Below are positions 1,253 through 61,037 of a DNA stretch of 64,000 nucleotides, in pieces (positions within the stretch are counted from its first letter, which is position 1; each line of letters begins with the position of its first letter). The DNA lies in contig CP145410.1 in the NCBI GenBank assembly GCA_036867785.1, positions 1,736,001-1,800,000 on the forward strand, read 5' to 3'. Below the pieces are notes generated by a model. It saw only the letters and a list, made by a program, of their open reading frames with translations, had not been told where the DNA came from and searched no databases. Both the position numbers and the translations under genes were made by a program. This DNA comes from Plasmodiophora brassicae (lineage: Eukaryota).

Positions 1253-4200
1253 TCACACGCGGGTCATCCCGGCAGCTTTCGCCAGCTGTTTGCCATCGGA
1301 GATATCGATCTTGTTCTCCGCGAGGCGCTTCTCGAGAAAAGCCAGATAGGCGGTGACATGGGCGTTAGGAGACGCCGTCGCATTGCCGCCGCCGGTGACG
1401 CCGGTCGACGATTCTGGTTTCGAGAAATGCATAGTCGCCGTCTTCGTCATAGCGGTGTTCGTCTGCACTTTCACGTTGCCTTTGCCTTGCCAGATCAGCG
1501 TCGCCTTGGGGAAGTAGATCGCCGTCGTGAACGAGATCGAGCACCAGAGAATACCCAGAATGAACAGCGTCGTGTAGATCTGCGGTTGCGCCGGCACCAG
1601 CATCGAGATCAGCGGGAAGATGACACATGAAAAGATCGCCCCGTACAGCCCAAGCGTAATATGGGTCGACTCATTGAAATCGCTCTACAAACGCGTTCAG
1701 AACGGTACAGCACCGAACAGCAACCACATACCGGAGCGTGCCGAGTCTGGAATGCGACGAGCGCGCACGCGAGCAACGGAAGGAATATCGCGACGGCAAC
1801 TGGAACGGCCGTGACCGCATGGATAGGACAAGCCATGGTCTGCGTCACTAACGACCCGGACACTGTCACCTCCAGGTACGGAACGGGAGGATCGGCAACG
1901 GTAACGATCGTCAACATCAGCGCCGCCAGGATCAGTCCGATCACAACCGGGATCAGCAGCTTCTGGTTCGGCAACCTGACCACGTGGATCGATGCGCTGA
2001 AGAACACCTTCCAGATGCGGTACGCTTTGGCAGCAATCACGGACAGCAGGGCGACGATCGACAGCGTCGGGAGCCACCAGCGCAACGCACAGACCGTTGT
2101 CGATGCCGGCACCAGGTACGGGATGCACGACAGGAAGCAGGCGCACAACGACACCAGCGTGTACAGGTTGAACGCGTACGACGACGCCTTGATAATGGCA
2201 TCGTCGCGATGTCGGTACACCATGCCCAGTAGCATCAGCGCACCGACCGCACCCAGCAACGCCACCGCCCAGGCGATCGCCACAATCGTCGCATTGGCCG
2301 GCGACGTCACCGTGACGTACCTGTACGTCACGACCTTATCGAGCAGGGCTTGCCCGTCGAACTGGACTCGGCACGGAGCGGTCGCCGATCCGATCTGCTT
2401 CGTCTCCGGATCGTACTGCACGCCACCGACGTGCGTGATCCACCACTGGTCCCCGGGACGGATCTCAGAGACGGCGCTGTGCCCGGCGCGTGGCCCGCAC
2501 CCCGCGCCATACGTCATTGGCACGGCGACCCACTCCCGGGAAATGATCAGGTACACGTACGTCGACATCGGTATCGATGCATCCGTTGTGCGTCCGCCTT
2601 GGACGACGAGCACGTTCCGGCCGCTGATAGTGACGACAACGACCGTGAACTGCGTCAATGCAATTGGCATGGGCGGCAGCGCCGTCCACTGCCCGCTGTT
2701 CAGGTCGAGGACCCAGGCATCGCGCAATGCATTGCCGTTCCACTCGCCGCCGAGCACGTACCACGATCGGTCCCCAACCAGGACGCTGCGGTGACGGTTC
2801 CGCACCGGTGGCGATCCCTTGACCGGGTCGGGCAACGTCTGGAGTTGTTGCCAGGCGGCGGACGGCGGCACTTTGTTCGGCGTCCACGCGCCCGACAGGT
2901 TCAGGTACCAGACGTCGCCGAAAAACTGGTACAAGCCACGGCCGCCCATCGTATAGAACACGGGCGAGCCGACGTTGTTCGTGACCGCGCACGCTGAACC
3001 CCAACGTTGTCCAGGGCCGGCAGCATCCGGCGGTACGTTCAGCGACTGCCAGTGCAGGTACAGATCGGCGAATCCGCGCCCGTTCAGTAACAGGTTGACC
3101 TGGCCGGACACGGTCATGGTCGTCGGGTCGTTGCCGCCGTACTGCACAGCCAGCGTCGCCGACCCATCCGCCGATCTGATCGACGCCACGCACGATTCCG
3201 CCAACGCTGCCGGCCCCACGCCCGTGACGTTCATCAGCGTGGACGACGATTCCGGTGACCAGTTGTCCCCCAGCACTACGTGATCACAGAGAAGTGTCAT
3301 CAACCTCGAATGGATCAAGCATGCGCAGTTCCCTGCCGGCCAATCTGCGTACCATCGAAAGACCAGATGCGGTGGGCATCGCCGAACTGGTAGATGTAGG
3401 ATCCCCAGGCGTTGCTGACGTTGACGGCTGCGCACGTCGAGGCGGGATCCGGGGCGCGGCCGTACAGCGTCACGGGCATCATGATGTTGACGTGGGTCAG
3501 GTCGCGGGCCAGCCAGTAGTTCCCGTCCAGGGGCAACGTCAGTGCCCCAGTCGCCAGGTCGCTGATCGCCTTCGACTGGATCGTCGCGAACGATGCTGGC
3601 ACGTGCGAACACGCGTCATGACAAGGCGAAAGACCAACGCCGCCGTTCGAAGCGTCGAAAAACGCGTTCGTTCCGCCTTGGAATGTCCCGGCCAGCACCG
3701 ACTTCAGCGTCACGTAGACCGACACGTCCACCTTTTTCAACGCCGTCGCTGTAAACATGATGGATCAGAACGGAGAAACAAGTGGTTTCCTTTGGACGCC
3801 CACCCAAGACACGGGTCTTCAGTGTGCTATTCACTGCGTTCACCAACAGAGGTCAGATCACCGAGGCTGACTCGTGAATGCTCAGCAGATCAACGAACCA
3901 AAGGCAGTGGCGTAGTAGTCCGCATCAACGCCGATAATGAGAGCATTCGGGTTCGCAATGGCCATGTAGTTGTCGGCAACGGCCCCAGCGCCGCCACCAA
4001 CCCTGCGACCGCTTTTGAATTTCTGATCGCAGCACTCGTATTCCAGTTCCCATACCCGAATATAATATCGGCGTTGTCGTCGGCAAACATTCGTCCTAAG
4101 GGTGCCAGATACGGTCCGCCAATAAAATCGAACATGTACTGCTCCAGAATGATGCAGGTCGGACAAGTCTATGGAGGCAGGCACGTTACTGCCAATGTCT

Positions 4201-4834
4201 CAAATGGACATGCACACCAACCTGTCGAACGCCGAGCTTGAATCCGTTGCAGTATCCCCGAACGGGTGGCAAAGGGACTCCGCCCGCGCTGGCCACGACT
4301 TTCGTTTGCGTCACCAATCCGGCCAGTAAACCAGCAAGGTATCCGGCCTGCTCCTGACGGAACAGAATCCCTTGGGAGTTCTTCGGAATCGTATCCCCAG
4401 GAGGGACGTTGTCGACTATGGCCATGCCAATACCCGGTGTCTGCCGGGGCAGGTCAGCATTGGAGAATATGGGAGAACCATTACGAACTAACATTGAGGT
4501 ACGCAGCTGACAAAGCCTGAATCATCGGCGTGGCTGTGAAGCTGGCGAAGATGAAGAAATTGCAATCAGTGGCACCGGGCTGCACTTCCCATGGGACGAA
4601 CACATCGCCGTTAGCGTAGCGGTTCTGTTCAACTGCTTCCAGGATGACGACTTTGTACTTGAACTTGGACGGATCGTTAACCTCGTTATAGACCCGGGCC
4701 ATGCCGTCGTAAACGCCCTCCATGAACCCCCCGTCCATGATGAGATTCTGCTGGCTCACAAAGCAGACCGACACCGGAGCAGCATGGGTAACCGGCACCG
4801 CGATGGCCGTAAAGACCAGGATCCACGAGAGCAT
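1253..4834 (-). CDS. Class C-type GPCR, copy 1: signal peptide + BMP/PnrA-like solute-binding domain + kelch repeats + 7TM (multi-exon)
   Basis: Signal MLSWILVFTAIAVPVTHA; BMP motifs DGGFMEGVYDG, FRQEQAGYLAGLLAG, IIGVDAD, ALKKVDVSV; kelch motifs YVLGGEWNG..DAWVLDLNSGQW, PRAGHSAV; 7tm_3 motifs IIKASS, AKAYRIWKVF, FNES, YFPK. Confidence 0.85.
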
Positions 4835-6016
4835 CGCGGTAATGCGTCGCCGGACACTTCGTGAACTATATACGCGGGAGGACACGGTACCGACCCGGAA
4901 TTTTAACTGACCGTAGGTACCTGTGACGGCAAGTGTCTGACAGCCCATGCATTGAATTTATACTACAACCAGGCACAGCTACTTCTACATCTACGTAGAA
5001 GTAGTGATTAACCGGCTCGCTGTCATGCAATGAATGTCCTTCACGCAGATTGCAAAAGCGATGAACGACCTCGGGTCTCCTCACTACGCTCGTAGCAAGC
5101 AGCCCAGCTAGGTCGACAATCTCAAAGAAATTCGTGTTATGGTCGTCGTCGTACCTGTCGACGAATAAAGCGGAAGACCCGAACGTTTATTGGATTACTG
5201 GGTACGCATTCCCGATCGGAACCCAACGCATATGATGGATCGCCATTTGCAAAGCGGACGCGCCGCCGGTGTTCGTCCACACCTGGACATGTCATTTGCA
5301 ACGATGCGGGCAGCTTGGTCCACAGTGCGCTCGAGTGAATTATCGGGATCGGAAGTGCCCAGGTCGCCGGGTGGGTGGGTCACATCACGAAGCCGCATGC
5401 GGGGTCACTACAGAACGATCTCAGAACGAGCCTGGATTATGAATTGCGGGCACGAACGTAACTGGTCCACTGCCCCATCTTTCCACACCACTAAACCCTT
5501 GGCGTGTTCGGGCCCGTAACCGGCGGGGTTGCCCCCAATGGGGTTGATTCGGGGAGGGGTTGTGAGCCCCGAACGACTAATACAGAGATGACATGTTTGT
5601 CCCTGTACCTGCAGGGGACGGCGCACTGGGTGGCGCCCCTTAAAGGGGCTGCGACCAGACGCAAGCAGGAGGGAGAGCACGTTGGAAGACGAAGGGGCGC
5701 CTGTAAATTAGGTGACCACCTCCCACGAGGGGTGGATGCCGTCTGTAGTGTTATAGCCAGATCAACCACAGTGAGGGAGATCAAAGTCTACGAACGTATG
5801 GCGAGTTCAATGAGCCATGAGACTCGCCCCGGAGTCGCCAATCTGCGAGATCCCAGCACAAAGGTGACAGGCCGGCACTGCCCGGCCGGGAGAAGCTGAC
5901 GCTCTGGAAGCTGATCCTACGGTCCTCGGACCCGAGACCGAGGCGCCTGCTTAAAAGCGCTAAACACAGTTAACCTGAACAAAACTACAATGCCATCCAA
6001 AGCAAATCGTTCGTGT

Positions 6017-7284
6017 CCTAAAGGGAATTTGAAAATCCCGTTACCAGCGAGCTCGCCAAAGCCGGTGAGATTGCAACCATGATTGGGACGGCAATCTTAG
6101 ATCTGACACTCACATCCCAACAGGGTACCCAAGTCACCCTGCGTCGAGTGGAATGTCTAGTTTCCAGAGATGACTTGAGCGTTAACGCCGTCCTCATTGG
6201 CCGACATGAGCTCGACATTCTCGGCATCAACCCCGATGGCATTCTCGAGGACAAGTACTCCAACAGTACTGACATGATCGAACTTGTGTGTACGTACGAA
6301 CACCTACGTACTGCAACCACTGGCAAACGAAACGTTGTCGTGTGGAGACTCCAAAGAATTTGGTAAGTCAACCCGATCCTGATGATGACTGCTTTGTCGA
6401 TGATTGTAGGAGACTTCGATCAATCGGAACTCGGCAAAGCAATTGACAGCATGGCGGATCGCGCCGTTTAGGAAGGACTACCACCTGAACGAGTTACGTC
6501 TTATCGTATATGATCACCATGATGTATGGAGGGTCAAACTGCATTGGATACCGCCAGTGAAGGTAACCCCGATGAAATTGCATTTGAAGCAAGATGCTCA
6601 GCCTGTAGCATGTGGAGCTACCCTAATACCGTGTCATAACATTTGGTACCTCCGATCCCAGCTCCATCTGCTACACGTTGAGCATCTTGCAATTCTATCG
6701 GGGTTACCTTCCCTGGCGGTATCCGGTGCAGTCTGACCCTCCATACATCATGATGATCATATACGATACGACATAACTCATTCTTGTGTTCAGGTGGTAG
6801 TCCTTCCTCAACAGCGCGATCCACCATGCTGTCAATTGCTTTGTCGACTTCCGATTTATCGAAGTTCTCCTACCTCACCAATAGTTTTTGTACGAACATT
6901 GAGCAAGTCGCTCCTACATCGACAAAGTAATAGTCATCATTCGGATCGGGTTGACTTACCAAATTCTTTAGAGTCTCCACACGACAACGTTTCGTTTGCC
7001 AGTGGTTGCAGTACGTAGGTCTTCGTACGTATACACAAGTTCGATCATGTCAGTACTGTTGGAGTACTTGTCCTCGAGAATGCCATCGGGGTTGATGCCG
7101 AGAATGTCGAGCTCACGTCGGCCAATGAGGACGACGTTAACGCTCAAGCCATCTCTGGAAATTAGACATTCCACTCGACGCAGGGTGACTTGGGTACCCT
7201 GTACGATTGCCGTTCCAACTATGGTTGCAATCTCATCGGCTTTGGCGAGCCCGCTGGTAATAGGATTTCCAAATTTCCTGTAGG
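6017..7284. repeat. Inverted repeat, arms about 6017-6619 and 6660-7284, loop about 40 nt
   Basis: Arms are reverse complements at roughly 85-90% identity by eye, with indels; 7293-7386 is an extra direct copy of about 6910-7000. Confidence 0.95.
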
Positions 7285-7386
7285 TACGATTTGCTAGTCT
7301 CCTACATCGACAAATTAAAGTAGTCATCACCCGGACCGGGTTCACTTACCAAATTCTTTGGCGTCTCCACACGACGTTTCGTTGCC
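6017..7386. mobile_element. Degenerate Ty3/Gypsy-like pol fragment (protease C-terminus and linker to RT), present in both orientations
   Basis: VLIGRHELDILGI resembles the retropepsin ILGRD.L motif; DHHDVWRVKL..PP.KVTPMKLHLKQDAQPV resembles the pre-RT linker; frameshifts and stops present. Confidence 0.65.
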
Positions 7387-8294
7387 ACAACTCACGACGA
7401 CTAGACAAACAATACGAGACTACTGAGCCCAGCAAGTAAGTGTATCAATACATCGGATCGGTGGACGTTTCTGACTTTGGGCGGAGGCCGTGTTCTACTT
7501 GTGGGTATGGCCAGGTGCCGGTACTTGAGGGTGCGCGTGTCTTGACTCCTCCCTCGACCGGACACGGTCGTCGCACGCAGCAAACCCTTTGTTTGAGGTC
7601 TTCGAACTAGACCCGCCCGAGAGCTTTGGTGGATATGTCGGCGAGGTTGTCGCCAGTTCGCACGTACGAAACGCGCAAGCTTGTGCAGCTTCAAAGTGGC
7701 ATGGAATTGCGGACAAAGCTAGCCGTCTTCCTGACGACCATCCTGGAACGCATACGTATGCCACACGTGCTAGGAGAGTCGACGCAGCTGATCACAACGA
7801 TCGAGGGAATGGACGTCACACTGGACGACGTCCTATAATGTGAGCCGACGTAAACTCTACACGATGATGTGGTCATCCCGTACAATTCCTATCCGATCAC
7901 AACCGCGTTTCGCCTCCTCATCCGGAAACTTAACGAAGCTGAACTTGCAAGCCTATCCCACGCATGACTCCTTCTCAGCAATGCTCTGTCGAGCAACCGA
8001 ATTTACCGGTCATGCGAACAGATCCTCTCGTTATGAGTGGAATTACTGTCACAACGACCCACGCATAGCGGACGTGTCCAACGGCTGATACCTTCCTGGT
8101 GCTACTGTTGGGTCACGTGCTCGACCCGAACTTATTGAAGTACATCGTGTTCGCGAGCCAGCTGCTTCTTCGGCAAATTAAGGGAGCAACCACGAATAGA
8201 CGTACTTCAACTTCGCACGACCTGCAGGACGTGCGAAGTGGGTGACACAGTTGGTGGAATCGCAATCGTATACCCGCCACGACAGCTCCGCGTC

Positions 8295-11200
8295 TCAGGC
8301 GCGCTGCAGACCCGCAGACCTCGCGAGATGCGCACCATCGGAGACATCGATATTGTTCTCCGCCAGGCGTTTCTCCAGGAACGCCACGTACACCACGAGA
8401 TTATCGTAGAGCGATGTGGCCATCTTGCCGCCGCCGGTGATCTCGTTCGACGATTCACGTACAGCAATAAGTATCCCCGGCGTATGCTTCAGATCCGATT
8501 TCGTATGCAGTTTCAGGTTGCCTTTGCCTTGCCAGATCAGCGTCGCCTTGGGGAAGTAGATCGCCGTCGTAAACGAGATCGAACACCAAAGAATGCCGAG
8601 GATGAACAGCGTCGTGTAGATTTGCGGTTGCGCCGGAACGAGCATTGAGATCAGCGGGAAGACGACGAAGGAGAAGATCGCCCCGTACAACCCCAAGGTC
8701 ATATGCGTCGACTCATTGAAGGTACTCTGTACGGAAACGTCTCAGAATAAGACAATACAGAGCGTCAAAGACATCCGCGCTACCGGGGCATGCCGAGTCT
8801 GGAACGCGACGAAAGCGCAGACGAACAACGGAAGAAATATCGCGACGGCAACAGGCACGGCCGTGGCCGCATGGATAGGACATGCCACGGTCTGGGTCAC
8901 TAACGAACCGGTCACCGTCACCTCCAGGTACGGAACGGGAGGATCGGCGACGGTAACGACCGTTAACATCAACGTCGCCAGGATCAGGTCGATCGTGACC
9001 GGAAGCAATAGCTTCCGATTCGGCAGCCGAACCACTTTCATGGAGTCGGTGCAGAACACCTTCCAGATGCGGTACGCTTTGGCAGCAATCACGGACAGCA
9101 GGGCGACGATCGACAGCGTCGGGAGCCACCAGCGCAACGCACAGACCGTTGTCGATGCCGGCACCAGGTACGGGATGCACGACAGGAAGCAGGCGCACAG
9201 CGACACCAGCGTGTACAGGTTGAACGCGTACGACGACGCCTTGATAATGGCATCGTCGCGATGTCGGTACACCATGCCCAGTAGCATCAGCGCACCGACC
9301 GCACCCAGCAACGCCACCGCCCAGGCGATCGCCACAATCGTCGCATTGGCCGGCGACGTCACCGTGACGTACCTGTACGTCACGACCTTATCGAGCAGGG
9401 CTTGCCCGTCGAACTGGACTCGGCACGGAGCGGTCGCCGATCCGATCTGCTTCGTCTCCGGATCGTACTGCACGCCACCGACGTGCGTGATCCACCACTG
9501 GTCCCCGGGACGGATCTCAGAGACGGCGCTGTGCCCGGCGCGTGGCCCGCACCCCGCGCCATACGTCATTGGCACGGCGACCCACTCCCGGGAAATGATC
9601 AGGTACACGTACGTCGACATCGGTATCGATGCATCCGTTGTGCGTCCGCCTTGGACGACGAGCACGTTCCGGCCGCTGATAGTGACGACAACGACCGTGA
9701 ACTGCGTCAATGCAATTGGCATGGGCGGCAGCGCCGTCCACTGCCCGCTGTTCAGGTCGAGGACCCAGGCATCGCGCAATGCATTGCCGTTCCACTCGCC
9801 GCCGAGCACGTACCACGATCGGTCCCCAACCAGGACGCTGCGGTGACGGTTCCGCACCGGTGGCGATCCCTTGACCGGGTCGGGCAACGTCTGGAGTTGT
9901 TGCCAGGCGGCGGACGGCGGCACTTTGTTCGGCGTCCACGCGCCCGACAGGTTCAGGTACCAGATGTCGCCGAAAAACTGGTACAAGCCACGGCCGCCCA
10001 TCGTATAGAACATGGGCGCGCCGACGTTGTTCGTGACCGCGCATGCTGAACCCCAACGTTGTCCAGGGCCGGCAGCATCCGGCGGTACGTTCAGCGACTG
10101 CCAGTGCAGGTACAGGTCGGCGAATCCGCGCCCGTTCAGTAACAGGTTGACCTGGCCGGACACGGTCATGGTCGTCGGGTCGTTGCCGCCGTACTGCACA
10201 GCCAGCGTCGCCGACCCATCCGCCGACCTGGTCGACGCCACGCACGATTCCGCCAGCGCTGCCGGCCCCATGCCCGTGACGTTCATCAGCGTGGACGACG
10301 ATTCCGGTGACCAGTTGTCCCCCAGCACTATGTGATCACGGGGAGGTGTCATCAACCTCGAATGGATCAAGCGTGCGCAGTTCCCTGCCGGCCAATCTGC
10401 GTACCATCGAAAGACCAGATGCGGTGGGCATCGCCGAACTGGTAGATGTAGGATCCCCAGGCGTTGCTGACGTTGACGGCCGCGCACGTCGAGGCGGGGT
10501 CCGGGGCGCGGCCGTACAGCGTCACGGGCATCATGGCGTTGACGTGGGTCAGGTCGCGGGCCAGCCAGTAGTTCCCGTCCAGGGGCAACGTCAGTGCCCC
10601 AGTCGCCAGGTCGCTGATCGCCTTCGACTGGATCGTCGCGAACGATGCCGGCACGTGCGAGCACGCGTCATGGCAAGGCGAAAGACCAACGCCGCCGTTC
10701 GAAGCGTCGAAAAACGCGTTCGTCCCGCCTTGGAATGTCCCGGCCAGCACCGACTTCAACGTCACGTAGATCGACACGTCTACCTTCTTCAGCGCGGTCC
10801 CTGCGGTCTTTACGAATCAGTTTGGGGGCATTCTCGTGATTGTCTGTTGATACTCACCCAAGACGCGGGATTTCAAAGTGCTATTGGCTGCGTGTACCAT
10901 TCGGGAGTCAGCCACCATTTTCATTGAATGACCACGCGAACGGACCGAAGGTAGAGATGTAATAGTCGGCGTCGACTCCGACAACAAGAGCGTTCGGGTT
11001 CGCGATGGCTGTGTACTGGTCGACAAGGGCCCCAGCTTCGCCGCCCACCCTACGGTAGTTTGGGAACATGAGCGCCGACAGTACATAATACAGGGTCTTC
11101 GACCAGGGTACCCACCCGTAAATAATGTCGGCGTTGTCGTTGGCGAACATTCGCCCTAATGGTTCCAGGTACGGCCCGCCCGAGAAATCGAACATGTATT

Positions 11201-11892
11201 GCTCCAGGATGATACAGCTCGGACACGTCTAAGGATAGAGCTTATAGCCATGAGTAATAGTGCACTATCCGCCCAGGTACCTGTCGGACGCCGAGCTTGA
11301 ATCCATTGCAGTATCCGCGTACAGGAGGGACCGGGATGCCGCCGGCACTGGCCACGACTTTCGTCTGCGTCACCAATCCGGCCAGTAATCCGGCGAGGTA
11401 CCCGGCCTGCTCCTGACGAAACAAAAGTCCCTGGGCGTTTCTCGGAATCGCAGTCCCCGGAGGAACGTCGTCAACAATGACGAGGGCCACACCGGGCGTC
11501 TGTAGTTACGGTCAGGCACTAACGAATACGACGAAACCGTGTGGGCCGACGTTGGCGTATGCAGCGGATAAGGCTTGGATCAGCGGTTCCGCAATGAAGC
11601 TGGCGAAGATGAAGAAATTGCAATCGGTGACACCCGGTTGCACTTCCCAGGGGACGAACACTTCGCCGTTACCCACTCGGGTCTGTTCACCCGTGTCCAG
11701 GATGATGACTCTGTGCTTGAACCTGGACGCGTCGTTGACCTCGGCGGCGACGCGCGCCATGCCGTCCAGGACGCCTTCCATGAACCCACCATCCATGATG
11801 ACGTTCTGGTGGCTCACGAAGCACGCCGACACGGGCGCCGCTCCACTAGCGGGCGCCGCGGCGACGGCGACTACGACGACCAGGACTAGCAT
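8295..11892 (-). CDS. Class C-type GPCR, copy 2: signal peptide + BMP domain + kelch + 7TM (tandem paralogue)
   Basis: Signal MLVLVVVVAVAAAPASGA; same motifs as copy 1; central region nearly identical at offset 7052. Confidence 0.85.
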
Positions 11893-17057: not shown

Positions 17058-17288
17058 TACGGCTATGTCACGCAAAGAGCATCAACCGGTGGTTCGAAGC
17101 CCTCAAGCGACACACCGAATACCTCACTCGACTGGGCGTACTTCGGAGCCGTGCTCTGTAGACCGGACCGCCCAACTAGGCCGCGAGAGCAGGCGGTCCG
17201 GTTTACAGCACGACTCCGAAGTACGCCCAGTCGAGTGAGGTGAGGGCTTCGAACCACCGGTTGATGCTCTTCGCGTCGCATAGCCGTA
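17058..17288. repeat. About 231-nt fold-back hairpin (about 100-bp stem, one ~15-nt bulge, ~19-nt loop)
   Basis: tacggctatg..gaagccctca pairs with tgagggcttc..catagccgta; cctcactcgactgggcgtacttcggag pairs with ctccgaagtacgcccagtcgagtgagg. Confidence 0.95.
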
Positions 17289-17289
17289 G

Positions 17290-19680
17290 TTCAGAGGCCT
17301 TGGCCGCCTTGTCGCTATGCTGGCAATGCGTGCTGCGTCGACAGCGCTGTTGCCGTCTAGCGCGCAGTTCCGATTGCTGATGCGCGTATTCGTCGACCGC
17401 TTGGTCTTCACGGAGTCCGGAAGTTCGGGCCAGCCACGGGTTGCCGACGCGCGCATGTCTGGTCGCCGGTCAGCGAGCCCAGGTGCGCGTTAAAGTCGCC
17501 GATGACATCCCGGCCCTCGTTGGCCTGTTCCAGGGCGCCATTGGGTCGCCCGACCTGTTCAACGTGCTGATCGACGACCTGCCCAAGGAGCTGGTCGACA
17601 AGTTCGGCGACAAGTTCGGCGATCGCTGCCCGCAGCTGGCCAGCATGCCGATGCCGTGCCAGCTGTACGCCGACGACACGACGCTGCACGCGTTCGACGA
17701 GGAGACGGCGCAGGAGATGGCGGACCACTGCCAGGCGTACGCTGAACGCCACCAGATGCAGTGGAACGCGGCAAAGTCGATCGTGTCGCGACCGGCGGAC
17801 CGCCCCAGATCGCCCTCCTCGGTCATGGAGCGGCCGGCGATGACAATGCCCCGCGTCTTCGGCCGGTCCGCCGGTCGCGACACGATCGACTTGTCGGCAT
17901 TCCATTGCATCTGGTGGCGCTCGGCGTACGCCTGGCAATGGTCCGCCATCTCCTGCGCCATGCTCTCGTCGAACGCGTGCAGCGTCGTGTCGTCAGCGTA
18001 CAACTGACACGGCATCGGCTCGTCGGCGAGCCTCGGGCAGCGATCGCCGAACTTGTCGACCAGCTCCCTCGGCAGGTCGTCGATGAGCACGTTAAACAGG
18101 TCGGGCGACCCGATAGCACCCTGGAACAGGCCCACAAGGGCCGGAATGCGACGCGATCGCTGGCCGTCCATGGTAATGATGAAGCCGCAGTCGTCGAATA
18201 GCGCCTGGATGACGGCGACGATCACGAGCGGCACACCGCGACCGATCAGCTTGTCGTAGACGAGGCGACGGCGCGCCGAGTCGTAGGCCTTGCGCATGTC
18301 GAGCAGGATCTCGGTCAACGGGCGCTTCGCGTGGGCGTAGTACGACGTCAGCTCGTCGGCACTGTCATCGCCGGCCGCGCCATGACCGAGGAGGGCGACC
18401 TGGGCAAGACGAACCGCCTGCTGGGCGTCGTCATGAAGCAGGGGCGCCTACAGCACGCGGAGCAGCTACGCGACCGCATGGCCAGGGCGGAGTCGGCCAT
18501 GGTCGGCATCGCCAAGTCGGGCGGGTTCGCCACCAACTAACTGCCTGTCACTGGTCCGCCAGGCGCGCGCGCCTGGGTAAGGTCGCGCGCCGAGTTCGGC
18601 ATGTCGTTCTGTCGGCACACAGCCCCGTCTCTCGCCAAGTTCGACTCGCTCCAGCGGAGCATGTGCGTTCTCTTCTTCGGCGGGCGCCGCGTGCGCCGGG
18701 GCAACATTCTGGTGATGCGGTACGCTGGCATTGCGCCCGGGCAGGCACGCCAGGCCAGGATTCGCACGAGTTTCGTCGTGAAGCGGATCGAGCGTGTCGA
18801 GCAGGTCAAGGACGGTGAGCCGGTCCCGTTCCTCGCCAAGGTCACCCAGTGGGCGTTGCAGCCGCGGCCAGCAATGTCGGCACGCAGGAAGCCGTACCAA
18901 AGCCGCCTCAGTTACAGTGTAGTGATGAGGCCGGGTTGCAGCAGGTCGACGACGACGACGAGCACGACAACGGCGCAGGCATCGATCGGGACGGCGGCCG
19001 GGATGTGCGCGCCAACGATCAGGACGGCGCGCGTGACGCGCAAGCGGCCCGACCGGTCGGATCCGGTAGGGACCTGGCGGGAACGCGCCCCTGTCGATCG
19101 ACGCAGTCATCCGGCATCCTGCACCAAGGCCACCGTCAGCAAGCAAGGCAAGCCGAGGCACGTGGCGCGACATACCTGCTGGCAAGGGCGATCGCACTGG
19201 ATGTCGTCGTCAGATGCGTCGCCGCGGCGGGATCGACGTACGCGCCTGGCAATCGCGGGCTCTTAAGAACGAGTCCTGGGCGTCGTTGGGTCGACAGGCA
19301 GACATCGACCTGCCGACGATGCTGGGCAGCTTCTGGTCGAATACGCGCTCGCAGCCAGCGGATCCTGTTGTGGACTGTTACGTGAATCACCGGGCGAATG
19401 ACACGATTCATGGAAGGCGACAATGTCTCCGCAAGTTCCGCCGGATCGTGCACCCGTGTACGTGACAGAACCTGCCATCAGGCGCAAACGTATCGTTGCT
19501 CGTCGAATTCCCACAATCGATGTCGCTGCCCATACTTCATATCTGCACCGTCGACGTCGTTGCTGCACGGGAACCAGATTATCGCGACGAAGCTAGGTTC
19601 GATCGACCGACAGACGAATGCTGGATCGAATGGGATCTTTACTGGCCAGATCAGGCGAACAGGTGCCTGCGCGCGTAGTC
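17290..19680. mobile_element. Scrambled non-LTR (LINE) retrotransposon remnant with APE endonuclease and RT fragments on both strands
   Basis: Minus strand VIGDFNAHLG at about 17475-17506 (APE motif); RT motifs LLDMRKAYDS, GLFQGAIGSPDLFN and LYADD, the latter two on both strands; plus-strand post-RT continuation NRLLGV..SRAEFG with a stop at 18538. Confidence 0.9.
17506..18148. repeat. Inverted repeat of the RT core, arms about 17506-17805 and 17861-18148
   Basis: The same RT segment is encoded on + and - strands; the loop 17805-17860 also pairs with 18358-18403. Confidence 0.95.
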
Positions 19681-22943: not shown

Positions 22944-25925
22944 ATGGCGATGTGGTGGATCCTTCTCGCCATTGGCGGGGCAGCCGGGTGCCCCCTGAGT
23001 AACTACGCGTGCTTGCGCACGGTCGCATACCTTCAATCGCCATCGGCGACCTGGCCGGTGCCGTCGAGCGCGACGTTCTACCTCGGGTCCAGGAAGTACA
23101 ATGTATCGCAGATGCAGACGATCATGCGATCGTCGGCTATAGGCGGCGACGAGTTGCAGGCGATGGCGCAGCAGGAGATTGCCGCGTTGATCAACGTGTA
23201 CAACGGGGCGCCCGCTACATCCGTCGGATCAACGGTCGCCAGTGCGGACTCGCTGATCGGGTCGCTCATCGTGCCACCACTTCCTGGATACAGTACGCTG
23301 TCTGGCGTCGCTGTTGAAAACGTCACTACCAGCCTGAACGCGTTCAACACCATGTCTTCCGCATGTACATTACCACCTACGCCGGCCCCTACTCCAGCAC
23401 CAACGCCCGCACCTACGCCGGCGCCTACACCAGCACCAACCCCAGCACCAACACCGGCGCCCACACCCGCACCAACTCCCGCCCCTACGCCACAGCCTAC
23501 TCCAGCCCCTACTCCGGCACCGACACCGGCGCCAACTCCAGCACCCACACCAGCACCAACTCCAGCACCGACACCAGCACCAACCCCAGCACCAACACCG
23601 GCGCCCACACCCGCACCAACTCCCGCCCCTACGCCAGCACCCACACCGGCACCAACTCCAGCACCCACTCCAGCACCGACACCGGCACCCACACCAGCAC
23701 CCACTCCAGCACCCACACCGGCACCAACACCAGCACCGACACCGGCACCCACACCGGAACCAACGCCAGCACCAACTCCAGCACCGACACCAGCACCTAC
23801 TCCAGCACCGACACCGGAACCCACGCCAGCACCGACACCAGCACCTACTCCAGCACCAACACCGGAACCCACACCAGCGCCGACTCCAGCACCAACTCCA
23901 GCACCGACACCGGCACCAACACCAGCACCGACACCGGCACCCACACCGGAACCAACGCCAGCACCAACTCCATCACCGACACCAGCACCTACTCCAGCAC
24001 CGACACCGGAACCCACGCCAGCGCCGACACCGGAACCCACACCAGCACCGACACCAGCACCCACACCAGCACCGACACCGGCACCAACGCCATCACCAAC
24101 TCCAGCACCGACACCGGCACCGACACCGGCGCCAACTCCAGCACCCACACCAGCACCAACTCCAGCACCGACACCAGCTCCAACCCCAGCACCAACACCG
24201 GCGCCCACACCCGCACCAACTCCCGCCCCTACGCCAGCACCCACACCAGCACCAACTCCAGCACCCACTCCAGCACCGACACCGGCACCCACACCAGCAC
24301 CCACTCCAGAACCAACTCCAGCACCCACACCGGTACCTACACCGGCACCCACACCAGAACCAACGCCGGCACCCACACCGGCACCCACACCAGCACCAAC
24401 GCCGGCACCCACACCGGAACCAACGCCAGCACCGACACCAGCACCTACTCCAGCACCGACACCGGAACCCACACCAGCACCGACACCAGCACCAACTCCG
24501 GCACCGACACCGGCACCAACGCCAGCACCAACTCCAGCACCGACACCGGCACCGACACCAGCACCAACCCCAGCACCAACTCCAGCACCGACACCGGCGC
24601 CAACTCCAGCGCCGACACCAGCACCAACCCCAGCACCGACGCCGGCACCAACTCCAGCACCGACACCGGCACCAACTCCAGCACCGACACCGGCACCAAC
24701 CCCAGCACCGACTCCAGCACCAACTCCAGCGCCGACACCGGAACCCACACCAGCACCGACACCAGCACCAACTCCGGCACCGACACCGGCACCAACGCCA
24801 GCACCAACCCCAGCACCGACACCGGCACCGACACCAGCACCGACCCCAGCACCAACACCAGCGCCAACTCCAGCACCCACACCGGCACCAACCCCAGCAC
24901 CGACACCGGCACCAACTCCAGCGCCGACACCGGAACTCACACCAGCACCGACTCCAGCACCGACACCGGCACCAACGCCAGCACCAACTCAAGCACCGAC
25001 ACCGGCACCGACACCAGCACCGACCCCAGCACCAACACCAGCGCCAACTCCAGCACCCACACCGGCACCAACCCCAGCACCGACACCGGCACCAACTCCA
25101 GCGCCGACACCGGAACTCACACCAGCACCGACTCCAGCACCGACACCGGCACCAACGCCAGCACCAACTCAAGCACCAACTCCAGCGCCAACACCGGAAC
25201 CCACACCAGCACCGACTCCAGCACCAGCACCGACACCAGAACCGACGCCTCCTCTGACCTCAACGGTAACGTCAACCGCACGAGCACCAACGTCGACGAC
25301 AATAACCCCGACACCAACGCCATCACCAACGCCTGCATCAACTCCCTCAACCGCTCCTGCTTCGACGATTGCATCTCCGTCCCCATTCACAGCGTCCACG
25401 TCGCCGAGGTCAACTTCACATCGAACGCCGACGACGACAAACAGGGTCGGATTCCTAACCGACCCCAACGGTAGCCGAACCACAGCCAGAGTGCACACTC
25501 TGCGACGAACGACGTCACGCTGGCTGCCGCCCACGCCAGCGGCAGCGCCTGTCCAGGCACCCACGCCCGTGTATGCACCGACACCCGCTCGCGCGCCAAC
25601 ACCAGCGCAGGCACCCACGCCCGCGCATGCACCGACACCCCCTCCAGCGCCAACACCAGCGCAGGCACCCACGCCCGCGCAAGCACCGACACCCGCTCCA
25701 GCGCCAACACCAGCGCAGGCACCCACGCCCGCGCAAGCACCGACACCTGCTCGAGCGCCAACACCAGCGCAGGCACCCACGCCCGTGCAGGCTCCCACGC
25801 CGCAGCGGGCACCTACACCCGCACCGACCGCCTCGGCACCAACGCCAACGTCGAGCTCCACGCCGCCATCGGCCTGGACAGCGATCCTGCTCGGCACCGC
25901 CGTTCCCATCATGTTCTTCCTATAA
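22944..25925 (+). CDS. Mucin-like surface protein: signal peptide + same head domain + long (PTPA)n stalk + hydrophobic C-terminus (putative GPI signal)
   Basis: Signal [15 protein letters not shown]; paralogous head; ends [18 protein letters not shown]. Confidence 0.85.
23374..25250 (+). repeat. 12-bp coding minisatellite (about 155 units, PTPA/PTPE) with higher-order 180-bp duplications; a second 18-bp array (APTPAQ) lies at about 25545-25830
   Basis: Period visible directly; rare ELT and TQA variants recur 180 bp apart. Confidence 0.95.
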
Positions 25926-56499: not shown

Positions 56500-57722
56500 G
56501 GGCGCCTTATAATGTCACCCGGGTGCAGCGGCCAGCCCCCCGGTCACCCGCCCGCCACCCTAGTAACGACCTGGCCGACAGCCATACCCACCACCTTCAG
56601 TCCCATATAGAACGGATGCATAATAACGACCTGGCCGACAACCATATGAAACGGACGGTATGCGACGTTTGGTGTAATATGAAACGGACAGTGTTGCGGA
56701 TTTCAGTGCCATATGAAAACGGACGATATTGCGAATTTCGGTGTCATATGAAACGAACGACGTTGCGGAATTCACTCTAATAAGAAACGGATATTGCAAA
56801 TTTCGGTGTCATATGAAACGCACCATGGATTTTCGAGCAGGCCAACGTAGCTGGTCCGGTCGGACGCACGCCAAATAGGGAAGATTGGTGCGGAAGCACA
56901 TAGCACGACAGACAGGTGACACCAGTCAGTCCGAGCAGCATTTGACGTAGCATCAGTTCAAGCGACAGGGCATGACGTACGTACCAGTCCGAGCAGCGGT
57001 GTGTGACGCATCACCAGTGCCTGCAGGTGATGTCACGCGTCATGTCGACCAACGTCGACGACTACGTGACACGTGCAAGTGACCGGTGTGTGTCCAGTCA
57101 TAATTCCCGCGCAGCATTTTCGGTGTCGTCACTCGTCACGTCTGCACACCGCGGCGGGGAAAAGACGCCGTCAGTCGTCAGATGGAGTGCAACGATAGAG
57201 ACAGCGTATGGAGGCGACAAGCGGACGAGGACTCGGAAGACTCGCGTCCTCATCTAGCAGTGACGATGATATTGATGAAGTTGTCACGGCCGGCTTGACG
57301 CTCAGCGAGCAAGTGCTCAACCCGCGGCCAAAGGTGGCAGCCAAGCGCGGATGGGGTGGCGCTCGACCTGGACGGGCGCCGAACGAAAACCACAGGCGAC
57401 TGTTGTATGCCCAGCTACTCTTTGATGATTACTGGGGCCCTGATCCGGTTTATGATGCCAATCGTTTTTCGACGGACGTTCCGAATGCCGAAGGCGCTTT
57501 TCGATGAGATTCACGAACGCGTGACCCGGTTCGACGAATACTTCCTGAAGAAAAATGATGCTCTTGGGGTAAGGACTGTTCTGTTCTACCTGTCGGTTGC
57601 GTTTATAACCGAATCTTCCTTAGGTTCCAGGGTTTACGTCCTTGCAGAAAGTCGTCTGTGCGGTGCGCATGCTCACTCCAGGTGATTCAGCACATGAGCT
57701 GGACGACAAATTCAGGTTCAGC
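56500..57722 (+). mobile_element. Truncated PIF/Harbinger-type DNA transposon: putative left end + frameshifted transposase 5' part (57208-57722)
   Basis: LFDDYWGPDPVY, frameshift, FRRTFRMPKALFDEI..DEYFLKKNDALG, intron, GFTSLQKVVCAVRML..ELDD; this is the Plant_tran-type N-terminus and the DDE core is missing. Confidence 0.85.
56604..56824 (+). repeat. Tandem 32-35-bp repeats with core (C/A)ATATGAAACG(G)AC, probable transposon subterminal repeats
   Basis: Core at about 56643, 56676, 56710, 56745, 56778 and 56810 (variant at 56604); 17-bp direct repeat taacgacctggccgaca at 56564 and 56624. Confidence 0.85.
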
Positions 57723-58136
57723 ACGGTGTCATGCAGCTGGAGAACCGTGTGGCATAGGCGCTCGACCGTGTCCTTCAGCGAGAAGACGTCCACGGTCAGT
57801 CGGGCCGCCACCTCCGGCTGAGCGTCTCGCAGCATGCTGTCCGGGATCGCGGTGATGTTCACTCTGAGAAACTCGACCAGGATCTCCCCTGACCATCCCA
57901 CGATGAGTCGTGCTTGCGATGAGCTCGGCTTACCGAGGTCAACTCTGAGGGGATGGTCAGAGGAGATCCTGGTCGAGTGTCTCAAGGTGAACATCACCGC
58001 GATCCCGGACAGCATGCTGCGAGACGCTCAGCCGGAGGAGGCGGCCCGACTGACCGTGGACGTCTTCTCACTGAAGGACACGGTCGAGCGCCTATGCCAC
58101 ACGGTTCTCCAGCTGCATGACACCGTGCTGTACCTG
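57713..58136. repeat. Inverted repeat, 187-bp arms (57713-57899 and 57950-58136), 50-nt loop
   Basis: Near-perfect reverse complement with a few substitutions. Confidence 0.97.
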
Positions 58137-58141
58137 CAGCG

Positions 58142-59020
58142 AGAGAACCGCCAACAGGCCCTCGCAATGGCTCAAATGCAGAGCGAGATCCTAGAGGTGC
58201 TGATCGATGTCTGACAGGCCTACTGCAGCGGCGCAATCGACCCACGATATCCCCGCTTCTTATGGCATGATGCGTCCTCGTTCGGGAGCGTGAGACGTTT
58301 CATGGTACGTGCAAGCAGAAGACAGACTACTACGCGCTCGCGTTCGACGACAACCGGCGCTTGGTTGCAATTTGGCGCGATGGCCGGAGAATCTCCTCTC
58401 TCCACTGGAATGTGGGAGGGCGTCGCCACCTGAAAAGCGGGCCCAGATGCCGTTTTCAGCAGCGCGTCAGCGTATCTGAATCGAACGTTCGATACGCTGG
58501 CTGACAGATACGAACACTTTGCTTCGGTTTCGTCTAGCCTGGGCGACCTCGATGGTCACGTGCATCGACGAACCAGGTCCCACTCTCTGTCGTCGATGCA
58601 CGTGACCACCGAGGTCGCCCAGGCTAGGCGAAACCGACGCAAGGTGTTCGTATCTGTCAGCCAGCGTATCGAACATTCGGTTCAGATACGCTGACGCGCT
58701 GCTGGAAACGGCATCTGGGCCCGCTTTTCAGGTGGCGACGCCCTCCCACATTCCAATGGAGAAAGGAGATTCCGGCCATCGCGCCAAACTGCAACCAACA
58801 AGCGCCGGTTGTCGTCGAACGCGAGCACGTTGTAGTCTGTCGTCTGCCTGCACGTACCATGAAACGTCTCACGCTCCCGAACGAGGACGCATCATGCCAT
58901 AAGAAGCGGGGATATCGTGAGTCGATTGCGCCGCTGCAGTAGGCCTGTCAGACATCGATCAGCACCTCTAGGATCTCGCTCTGCATTTGAGCCATTGCGA
59001 GGGCCTGTTGGCGGTTCTCT
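58142..59020. repeat. Inverted repeat, about 430-bp arms (58142-58571 and 58590-59020), 18-nt loop
   Basis: Near-perfect reverse complement; about 15 substitutions and 2 small indels counted by eye. Confidence 0.97.
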
Positions 59021-59068
59021 GTGTGGTGTCGACCAGCTGCGTGTCGGACATCCGCGGACCGTCGGGCG

Positions 59069-61037
59069 ATGGACCGCGACTGGGACGACATGACCGATGC
59101 CGAATGGGAAGCGTACGAGGAGCGCGTGTACCAGGAGCAGTTGGAGGAGATCAAGCAGACCGTCCGGGTCACACTGCCGTGTCCGTCTACATGGACGTGC
59201 ATGCCCAATTGCGGGTGGACGCTGACGCGCGAGCCGTCTTAGGGGTTGCGCGACAGATCGGCGTCATGCTGGGCGTGATGTTCTGCAAATGGGGCACCGG
59301 TGCCATCGGGCATGGGACATCAGCACCCCGTACTGCAAAGCGCTGTGCTGACACTGGCGCAGGTTCCACGCGCCTCCCATTCCGAACATTGGCCAGGAAG
59401 CCAAGCGATATTACATCAGCGAGCGCGTCCGCAGGACGCTTCAGGCCCGCGACCTTATCTTCGTCGGCGAACGCGTCGGCCTTGCGGCACTTGACTGACG
59501 GGCGGATTCTGAATACAAACTCAGCCGGTACGTACGTTCGCGTGCGATCTCGAATATCTCGCGCGCATGATGGACCGGGAGATCGCGAAGCGGTTGACCG
59601 AGGTGCCGCTGTCCTGGCAGTGGCCAGCAGGGCAGCTTGCATTCCGCTTGCACTTGCGATTCTGTCGCCTCCAAGCGATCCCCGATGTGGACCGCTTGAT
59701 GTTATCTGTCCAGCCTAACGACATCGCCCAGGCGGATTTCTCGTTGAACGCCATCGATCGCATCGACGGCGCGCTTGCGTCGTTCGCGATGGTTCGCGAC
59801 CTGAACCTGTCGAAGAACCTGCTGACGACGCTGTCGCTGACCGCGTTGCCGAACCTGACACACCTGAACCTCAGCCACAACGTCATCGACACTGTTATCA
59901 ACGTCGACCTCCCGCGCCTCGTGGACTTGGATCTCAGCGGGAACCGCCTAACGGACGATGGGTTCGATACGCTCGCTCGAGGCGCACCTCGTCTTGAAAC
60001 GCTGGATCTGACCTGCAACATGGTCACGACGTTGGACGGCATTCGAACGTTATCACGACTGGCAACGCTGCTGGCTTCCCGTAATCGAATCAGTGATCTG
60101 GGGCCGTGCGCGTCCCTGCCCCAGTTAAAGGTGCTGGTCGTCGCGGAGAACCAGATCGGATCGCTGGATACGACCAGGAAAGCGCTGGCGCTCCTGAAAC
60201 CAATGCAACGGGTCAGCCTGTGGGGGAACCCGATCGCCGAGGACCCGTTCTACAAGCTGACGATCCTTGATGCCGCTGCGCCTGATCTCCTCGACGAACA
60301 GGCCATTCGCCCGTACGTTCGTGCGCAACTTGCCGACCTGAAGAACAAGGAATTAGGTTAGCTGATGAACTATTCATCGAAAGGTTCTACTAACCGAGTT
60401 GTGACACAGTGGACAACCTTCTCGTGGCCATTACCGACGAATGTCAGTTACTCTCGTTCGTATCGTATGCGTACCTGACGAGGAACGAAACGCAGATCGA
60501 GCAAGGATCGAGAGCGAGGAAGCACTGGCCCAGGAGTACATTGACGAGTTACGTGCGGCGCAGGTGCAGGCGGAACAGCGATACATCGACTACCGGAACG
60601 AGATGAACCAGGAGCTTCGTGAAACGATCACGTTCCTGCAAATGGCGCGGGGCAAGCCCAGTTGGCTGTTGACACAGGAAGGCCTGCTGGAATGGAAATC
60701 GAAGCTTGATGCCCTGCAAGTCGAACGCGAGACCGCCGTACAACGAACTCGTGCAGAGGCGACGAAGCAGGCCGTAGAGGCGCGGAAGAAACTCGTCCAG
60801 AGCCAGACCATGACGAAGAAGCTCTACGCCATCTCCATGACGAAACCGCAGATCTGGCGAGCCATGAAGGCTCGCGAGCTTGAACTCATCCAGCGAGAAG
60901 AAGCTGCAGGGTTACGCACGGTAACAACGACACGTGGCAATGGTGTCCAGCAGGATCACCCGCTCCCGAGGCCAGGTGCGGACGCACTTCACGACGCGGT
61001 GCGTGACGTTGTTGGTAGGGCCCGCCGCACTGACTAG
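59069..61037 (+). CDS. SDS22-like leucine-rich-repeat + coiled-coil protein, multi-exon, 3' end uncertain
   Basis: LNLSKN, LNLSHN, LDLSGN, LDLTCN, LLASRN, LWGNPI..YKLTIL (LRRcap). Confidence 0.8.

What the first reader, a model, noticed from the sequence alone, without database searches (positions are those of the whole stretch)
57713..59020. Two back-to-back near-perfect hairpins made from one continuous coding relic
Seen: a plus-strand relic (about 57900-58590: RACDELGLPRSTLRGWSEEILVECLKVNITAIP.., then a coiled-coil) whose first part is mirrored on its left and whose second part is mirrored on its right. The two stems are only 5 nt apart, so nearly the whole relic becomes double-stranded. 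Two adjoining, non-overlapping inversions look more like a directed or selected process than one accident (inference). The peptide tentatively recalls the region downstream of the tyrosine recombinase in Crypton-like elements; this is unverified. The structure ends 48 bp before the LRR gene ATG.
Basis: partly seen in the sequence, partly recalled or inferred. Interest (0 to 1): 0.72.

Follow-up and report, generated by a model that had tools for sequence, protein, structure and literature searches.

The report
Double hairpin making anti-transposon small RNAs
In the clubroot parasite, scrambled pieces of a recently mobile transposon were folded back twice into two long hairpins that coincide with a published source of 21-base silencing RNAs, and similar hairpins underlie nearly all such RNA sources checked, which suggests where this organism gets double-stranded RNA without the usual enzyme.

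Summary
Structure confirmed: stems of 187 and 430 bp, about 96% matched, 5 nt apart. The relic is a three-block mosaic, not one continuous reading frame. Its donor is a 6.76-kb Crypton-like element (tyrosine recombinase plus RecQ-like helicase) with two 99.97% identical copies; the organism is Plasmodiophora brassicae. The locus maps onto published small-RNA loci (PMC13547706): phased 21-nt locus PHAS21-18 spans both hairpins, and Pb-miR008 is the first 21 nt of the outer arm, plus strand, perfectly antisense to the recombinase mRNA. Hairpins are common here (28 in 600 kb). With final offsets, 23 of 24 published phased loci tested lie on them; a fixed-offset test gave 5 of 11 before one drifted offset was refitted. 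The one miss is a transposon with a hairpin derivative elsewhere. The paper finds no RdRP and calls the dsRNA source unknown; fold-backs are a strong candidate. Silencing of the donor is not shown: its spliced mRNA is present. The 5-nt gap fits one double fold-back event; no selection was detected. The scan noted such hairpins before on other DNA of this genome; the tally against published loci is added here.

The parts
56643..56826 (+). Tandem ~34-nt repeats resembling the donor element's left subterminal repeats (about 70%); probably the relic end of a diverged relative
57146..57715 (+). PIF/Harbinger-type transposase relic, cut off by the hairpin; similarity to other copies begins near 57107
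   Evidence: copies at 90-93%; a sister copy hits Pfam Plant_tran PF04827 at E 8.6e-6; the window's own ORF had no Pfam hit
57713..57715 (+). 3-nt microhomology shared by the Harbinger relic and the start of arm A'
   Evidence: 3 of 4 copies examined continue past it
57713..57899 (-). Outer arm A' (inverted copy of A)
57900..57949 (+). Loop 1 (50 nt), start of donor block P1
57950..58136 (+). Inner arm A
58137..58141 (+). 5-nt single-copy spacer x; continuous with A and B in the donor
   Evidence: loose ends of X1 and X11
58142..58571 (+). Inner arm B, containing both mosaic junctions
58572..58589 (+). Loop 2 (18 nt), at a native 5-bp inverted repeat of the donor (element 2198-2226)
58590..59020 (-). 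Outer arm B' (inverted copy of B, junctions included)
57900..58257 (+). Donor block P1: recombinase C-terminal exon (element 2671-3024, 91%)
58258..58456 (+). Donor block P2: 5' end of the RecQ-like gene (antisense) and first right-end repeat (element 5343-5607, with small deletions)
58457..58595 (+). Donor block P3: recombinase exon up to the catalytic H-x-x-R motif (element 2089-2226, 91%)
58590..58610 (+). Pb-miR008 (published 21-nt RNA); precursor maps to 58542-58620; perfect complement of recombinase codons 273-279
   Evidence: Table S8 of PMC13547706
57710..59113 (.). Published phased 21-nt locus PHAS21-18 (P 1.7e-6), mapped by the miR008 anchor
   Evidence: Table S6
59069..59498 (+). 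Spliced 104-aa ORF of no known family; introns 59181-59242 (GT-AG) and 59310-59362 (GC-AG)
   Evidence: exon 1 alone had no Pfam hit above cut-off
59567..60361 (+). Leucine-rich-repeat ORF

Best explanation
A Mu-killer-like hairpin-RNA locus. Origin (inferred): an older copy of the recombinase/RecQ element gave a rearranged fragment (blocks P1-P2-P3). In one repair or replication event both ends folded back, one at a native 5-bp inverted repeat, and the product was joined to a Harbinger relic through 3 nt of microhomology. The order A'-loop-A-x-B-loop-B' is what results when a hairpin-capped dumbbell is opened at x and copied once round, or when fold-back synthesis stalls at the base of the first stem. 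Action: a plus-strand transcript folds into two long stems (transcript partly shown; promoter unknown). The Drosha-like RNase III cuts them into phased 21-nt RNAs (RNAs published for this interval; the enzyme's role here is inferred). Argonaute-loaded RNAs match both genes of the intact copies (sequence shown) and probably dampen but do not abolish their expression (inferred, about 0.5). Such fold-backs are probably the main dsRNA source in this RdRP-less organism (about 0.7).
For: PHAS21-18 maps to 57710-59113; its left edge is 3 nt from the start of arm A' and 93% of it is hairpin. Pb-miR008 has 4 perfect genomic matches: this arm, two donor copies (antisense) and the loop of the C20 derivative; only here is it in a long duplex. 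Of 1288 plus-strand 21-mers, 112 match the element's minus strand and 120 its plus strand perfectly. A second fold-back of the same element (C20:468047-469211) maps to PHAS21-180 at 468045-469266, and the phased locus on the C12 donor covers element 1464-2242, close to the stretch the two hairpins share with it. 13 of 13 phased loci in 374 kb of anchored blocks lie on hairpins covering 3.6% of the bases; random mean 0.88, maximum 6 in 20000 trials. Further loci: 4 of 5 on C2 with a fixed offset and 6 of 6 on C3 after refitting. Stems equally diverged, 7/187 against 15/428, p = 1.0. RNA contig X17 covers 58720-59130 without differences. The paper reports two AGOs, a Drosha-like enzyme that makes 21-nt products from long dsRNA, and no Dicer or RdRP.
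Against: The donor is not silent: X15 holds a recombinase contig with a spliced junction, X15 and X17 hold RecQ contigs, and the two intact copies are 99.97% identical, so it moved after the hairpin arose. No sign of selection on pairing: G-U-compatible mismatches 5 plus against 11 minus (p 0.21); inner against outer arm changes 14 against 6 (p 0.12). The fixed-offset test scored only 5 of 11, and its one C3 hit was a mismatch of loci. 7 of 24 hairpins overlap no published phased or miRNA locus. Raw small-RNA reads were not available, so abundance, strand ratio and register were not seen. The published tables come from another isolate's assembly, linked by anchors.
Confidence: 0.72

Rival explanations
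1. By-product: a neutral break-repair scar that is transcribed and diced by chance, with no effect on the donor element.
For: Hairpins are common (28 in 600 kb); no pairing selection detected; donor mRNA present; donor copies recent.
Against: The RNAs are perfectly complementary to both donor genes; AGOs are slicer-type and bind most small-RNA species; two independent hairpins target this element; the locus is shared with an isolate differing at 18 of 1610 nt next door.
Confidence: 0.35
2. Directed or selected process: a dedicated pathway makes fold-backs at transposons, or selection keeps those covering most of a transposon.
For: 20 of 50 hairpin tiles against 133 of 1150 other tiles have a homologue elsewhere in the held DNA (odds ratio 5.1, p 6e-7). 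Three transposon families examined each have fold-back derivatives. Two derivatives of this element break 4 nt apart. No isolate difference in 224 nt of arm-resolved contigs (p 0.08).
Against: Transposons break more often, which gives the same enrichment. The 5-bp repeat at loop 2 is one of 384 such sites in the element. One accident explains the 5-nt gap. No selection signal.
Confidence: 0.15
3. The small RNAs assigned here come from elsewhere (C20 hairpin, or convergent transcription of the donor's two genes) and only cross-map; this locus is silent.
For: Cross-mapping does appear to occur: PHAS21-20 lies in six identical transposon copies and PHAS21-53 on the donor. The donor genes are convergent.
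Against: PHAS21-18 covers block P1, which the C20 hairpin lacks and the donor's phased locus does not reach. At C20 the miR008 site is in the loop. The relic is only 86-96% identical to the donor.
Confidence: 0.07
4. Two successive, independent inversions that happen to abut.
For: Another back-to-back pair, 16 nt apart and of different topology, exists at C3:518047-518982.
Against: Equal arm divergence; both outer arms stop at the same 5-nt spacer (crude chance about 1%); the other 11 non-overlapping same-block neighbour gaps under 4 kb are 149 nt or more.
Confidence: 0.15
5. Assembly or amplification chimera.
For: Fold-backs are typical amplification artefacts (general knowledge).
Against: 22 substitutions and 2 indels between arms, on both arms; present in runs of other studies; small RNAs mapped to the same structure in another assembly.
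Confidence: 0.01

Closest known systems
Maize Mu killer and the Ac 'killer' alleles (bioRxiv 10.1101/2020.01.07.897926, passages read; PMC3440606, listing abstract only)
   Same: Natural inverted duplication of part of a DNA transposon that yields 21-nt-class small RNAs matching the intact element.
   Different: Two stems from a three-block mosaic of internal pieces rather than one terminal inverted duplication; target is a tyrosine-recombinase element; host lacks Dicer and RdRP; heritable trans-silencing not shown and the donor is still expressed.
P. brassicae miRNA and phasiRNA loci (PMC13547706; abstract, sections 2.2, 2.3, 2.4, 3 and 4.5, spreadsheet parts 1-5 of 34, keyword search of the Word supplement)
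   Same: This locus is PHAS21-18 and Pb-miR008 of that paper.
   Different: The paper gives coordinates only, shows one palindromic miRNA region, does not use the word 'inverted' in the main text, and leaves the siRNA precursor source open. It does not name this locus's origin or donor in what I read.
CryptonS elements of oomycetes and a diatom (PMC3212892, passages read), for the donor
   Same: Cre-like tyrosine recombinase with a conserved C-terminal region; named relatives are Aphanomyces proteins; TATGG occurs near both ends.
   Different: Ends are imperfect inverted repeats with TATGG internal and inverted, not 5-6-bp direct repeats; carries a convergent RecQ-like helicase ('helicase' does not occur in that paper); subterminal tandem repeats.
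Fold-back inversions, dog-bone (ODIRA) intermediates and circularly permuted insertions (recalled, no call; search found 0 papers)
   Same: Short-loop fold-back at a small inverted repeat, microhomology junction, both copies ending at one opening point.
   Different: About 700 bp, transposon-derived and inserted ectopically rather than amplifying in place.
Drosophila hpRNAs and Chlamydomonas long-hairpin small-RNA loci (recalled, not tested; one search gave listings only)
   Same: Genome-encoded long stems as the dsRNA source without RdRP.
   Different: Here the stems examined are largely transposon debris, estimated at about a thousand.

Membership tests
Killer-type inverted-duplication locus | Inverted duplication of partial transposon sequence | tested here: met
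Killer-type inverted-duplication locus | Transcribed through both arms from a nearby promoter | tested here: inconclusive
   X17 contig covers 301 nt of B' and runs into the next gene; no contig shows both arms; contigs give no strand or start
Killer-type inverted-duplication locus | Produces 21-24-nt small RNAs from the duplicated region | tested here: met
   Published PHAS21-18 and Pb-miR008 mapped here; raw reads not seen
Killer-type inverted-duplication locus | Heritable silencing of the active element in trans | not testable with these tools
   Spliced donor mRNA is present in X15, so any silencing is incomplete
Tyrosine recombinase (donor protein P0001) | Catalytic R-K-H-R-(H/W)-Y residues and Cre-like fold | tested here: met
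   R167 and K196 invariant, W310 and Y321 in 90% or more of 55 sequences, H283 and R286 in the majority consensus; profile hits Cre at E 3.8e-9; model pLDDT 82.6 hits Cre first; 17 of 55 members hit PF00589, P0001 itself does not
Crypton / CryptonS (donor) | Recombinase without reverse transcriptase | tested here: met
   6 of the element's ORFs scanned; only helicase domains found; smaller ORFs not scanned
Crypton / CryptonS (donor) | No TIRs; 4-6-bp terminal direct repeats (TATGG in CryptonS) | tested here: not met
   Two-copy alignment gives imperfect inverted ends, no direct repeat, no target duplication; filed as Crypton-like only
Crypton / CryptonS (donor) | Phylogenetic placement among CryptonS recombinases | not tested
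   No reference CryptonS sequences were held
Canonical miRNA gene | One dominant miRNA/miRNA* duplex from a short precursor | tested here: inconclusive
   The 79-nt precursor folds but is the tip of a 430-bp stem inside a phased locus; better read as a hairpin siRNA

The most novel reading that the evidence does not exclude
P. brassicae has replaced RdRP with a genome-encoded library of about a thousand fold-back relics, made preferentially at broken transposons by a biased snap-back repair route and kept because each silences its parent family: a heritable transposon memory, of which this locus is a one-step, two-stem entry against a new recombinase-plus-RecQ element.
Probability: 0.2. Interest if true: 0.88.

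Novelty: new variant of a known kind. Interest (0 to 1): 0.68.

Why it matters
The 2026 description of RNAi in this organism states that the source of dsRNA for its siRNAs is unknown because RdRP is missing. This locus ties a fold-back, a published phased locus, a published 21-nt RNA and a recently mobile target together, and 23 of 24 phased loci tested follow the same rule. The open question can now be settled by re-mapping existing reads. It also implies that many annotated 'miRNAs' here are tips of transposon hairpins, so their predicted gene targets need caution. The donor, with ends now defined by two copies, is a candidate new type of tyrosine-recombinase transposon.

Tried and rejected
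Run search: no RNA holder listed on record; X15 and X17 are guessed RNA, accepted because they show spliced joints. Contig depth was not used to rank genes, and lack of RNA cover over 58572-58719 in X17 is not used as evidence. No empty-site allele in the 2 DNA runs laid. Anchor Pb-miR137 found no match, so block C9 was left out of the overlap test; C4 (no miRNA in range) and C7 (no mapping found) were also left out: 3 of 6 random blocks. The fixed C3 offset failed because of about 5.4 kb of drift; it was refitted on one hairpin and confirmed by reading miR046 and miR048 in the printed sequence. Pfam did not name the relic ORFs or P0001. The word-indexed protein search found only P0001. Three predicted targets of miR008 in Table S9 share one score and energy (125, -47.25) and may be the three recombinase copies, but my perfect-duplex energy was -42.7 and gene ids could not be mapped; not used. 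The second back-to-back pair (C3) is not of the dumbbell type. No terminal motif of the element within 55-60 kb of the window. Searches for a prior report of nuclear fold-backs as the dsRNA source, or of a Crypton with RecQ; nothing found beyond PMC13547706 (PMC6823432 passages concern mitochondrial palindromes). The library lacks most subscription papers. Whether the 104-aa ORF is a separate gene or an upstream ORF of the LRR gene was not resolved.

Full report
1. Observation. The structure is as described. Arms 57713-57899 and 57950-58136 match at 180 of 187 positions around a 50-nt loop. Arms 58142-58571 and 58590-59020 match at 413 positions with 15 mismatches and two small indels around an 18-nt loop. 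Five bases separate the stems. The order is A'-loop-A-x-B-loop-B'. Against the donor, both arms carry their own changes (A: 5 inner, 1 outer, 1 three-way; B: 9 inner, 5 outer) besides 7 and 31 shared ones, so it is an aged genomic feature. DNA runs X1 and X11 hold separate contigs for both arms of hairpin 2 and a loose end running from B through x into A. Their contigs enter the right flank from 30 nt inside the arm, one short of the tool's bridging standard; X17 crosses that junction with 301 and 110 nt. X11 differs at 18 of 1610 nt in the neighbouring gene, so the locus predates that split.

2. Donor. The core matches an element at C12:802186-808945 (6760 nt) and C1:1475950-1482359, 99.97% identical over 6163 nt, plus a truncated copy on C20. 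Its plus-strand gene gives P0001 (699 aa), which the database names as a Plasmodiophora brassicae protein. 308 relatives were found at E up to 0.001. An alignment of 55 keeps R167 and K196 invariant and W310 and Y321 nearly so, its profile hits Cre at E 3.8e-9, and the predicted fold hits Cre first. The minus-strand gene is RecQ-like (single exons, below the whole-protein cut-offs). The ends are imperfect inverted repeats without direct repeats or target duplication, so the CryptonS terminal test of PMC3212892 is not met; I call it Crypton-like.

3. The relic is a mosaic of element positions 2671-3024 (recombinase C-terminal exon), 5343-5607 (antisense RecQ start and a right-end repeat) and 2089-2226 (exon up to the catalytic motif). 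B' copies both junctions, so the mosaic came first. Loop 2 sits on a native 5-bp inverted repeat, one of 384 in the element. The left flank is a Harbinger-type relic cut at a 3-nt microhomology. Both loops border the one missing stretch (2227-2670), both outer arms stop at x, and the stems are equally diverged. This is what one event gives: a hairpin-capped dumbbell opened at x, or fold-back synthesis that stalls at the base of the first stem. I cannot separate these two. No directed process is needed for the 5-nt gap.

4. Small RNAs. PMC13547706 reports 21-nt phased small RNAs, two AGOs and a Drosha-like RNase III in this species, no Dicer or RdRP, and states that the dsRNA source is unknown. 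Its Table S8 lists Pb-miR008, identical to window 58590-58610 on the plus strand. The 21-mer has four perfect matches in the genome: here, antisense on both intact copies, and in the loop of the C20 derivative; the inner arm differs by one base. Its 79-nt precursor maps to 58542-58620 and folds. With that anchor, PHAS21-18 (Table S6) maps to 57710-59113, that is, both hairpins. Of 1288 plus-strand 21-mers of the locus, 232 match the element perfectly, 112 on its minus and 120 on its plus strand. The C20 fold-back maps to PHAS21-180 within 2 nt at one edge, and the phased locus on the C12 donor covers element 1464-2242, about the stretch covered by the two hairpins (anchors; a difference in tandem-repeat number could shift the C12 figure). 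That looks like cross-mapping without spread, as expected without RdRP (inference).

5. Generality. Six 100-kb blocks chosen without regard to content held 28 hairpins (arm 50 nt or more, loop up to 1 kb), 12 with arms of 150 nt or more; some are TIR elements. That scales to about 900-1200 per genome. Three blocks and the window region were anchored by small-RNA sequences, after offsets had first been fitted by eye; three blocks could not be anchored and were dropped. In these 374 kb, 13 of 13 phased loci lie on hairpins covering 3.6% of bases (random mean 0.88, maximum 6 in 20000); four of them carry the anchors, and the other 9 of 9 hold. Conversely 14 of 24 hairpins overlap a phased locus and 17 of 24 a phased or miRNA locus. 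Phased loci were called by phasing score, not by structure. A test with offsets fixed in advance gave 5 of 11 (expected 0.48; 4 of 20000 random sets reached 5): 4 of 5 on C2 and 1 of 6 on C3, the latter a wrong pairing. The C3 offset had drifted; refitted on one hairpin and confirmed by two miRNA sequences, it gave 6 of 6, of which five are independent of the fit and two of those contain miRNA precursors. The C2 miss lies in a transposon with six identical copies and a fold-back derivative on C16. In all 23 of 24, out of 435 published loci.

6. Against the functional reading. X15 holds recombinase sequence with a spliced junction and both RNA-like runs hold RecQ contigs; the intact copies are nearly identical, so the element stayed mobile. 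Mismatches show no bias that preserves pairing. The lack of isolate differences in 224 nt of arm-resolved contigs is not significant. The promoter is unknown. The ATG next to the hairpin starts a spliced 104-aa ORF, not the LRR frame. Raw small-RNA reads were not available.

7. Comparison and verdict. [quoted passage not shown] It differs in its two-stem mosaic build, its target and its host pathway. Earlier notes of this scan proposed the hairpin-dsRNA idea on other DNA of this genome, one with a published small-RNA match, and described the recombinase-RecQ pair without confirmed ends; I read them after forming my reading. Added here are the identification of this locus with published loci, the tally against phased loci, and the element's ends. 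My paper searches found no report of either point. I read 5 of 34 parts of the spreadsheet supplement (Tables S1-S8 complete, S9 in part) and only searched the Word supplement. New variant of a known kind; interest 0.68.

Noticed in passing
G000 C12:802166-802185 and C1:1482360-1482379: The same 20-nt motif flanks both intact element copies, at opposite ends and in opposite orientation, and occurs nowhere else. It begins with the element's terminal tetranucleotide; it may be a carried spacer or a sign of inversion between the element's ends. A C6 relic has the left end without it.
   Followed up: partly
G000 C20:468047-469211: Second fold-back derivative of the same element (464-bp arms, 98%), breaking 4 nt from this relic's loop-2 breakpoint; maps to PHAS21-180.
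   Followed up: yes
window 17506-18148: Hairpin that contains published locus PHAS21-17; an earlier scan note calls it LINE-derived.
   Followed up: partly
window 6001-7387 and 17058-17288: Older hairpins (75-81% matched) with no published phased or miRNA locus; the first has homologues on C4 and C15 that match on both strands.
   Followed up: partly
G000 C3:518047-518982 (L152): Another back-to-back hairpin pair, 16 nt apart, from a multi-copy retrotransposon-like family; equals PHAS21-261; different topology.
   Followed up: yes
G000 C3:404313-404746 (L062): Pb-miR045, one of the three northern-validated miRNAs, comes from a 217-bp-arm fold-back.
   Followed up: partly
L029, L031, L036, L053, L054: Harbinger and Crypton-like relic loci elsewhere carry fold-backs of 100-230-bp arms within 1.5 kb.
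   Followed up: no
G000 C14:202765-203981: A 531-bp-arm hairpin with both-strand homologues on C4 and C9, so some hairpins are themselves multi-copy.
   Followed up: no
window 59069-59498: Small spliced ORF with an acidic N-terminus, a hydrophobic stretch and a GC-AG intron; X11 has 11 of its 18 differences within 59090-59567.
   Followed up: partly
window 1293-4783 / 8335-11841 and 23374-25873: A 3.5-kb direct duplication (87%) and a long tandem array.
   Followed up: no
L021:2-3840: Left of the C12 element, a retrotransposon pol frame on the minus strand abuts a chromodomain-like frame on the plus strand, which suggests another inversion (by eye).
   Followed up: no
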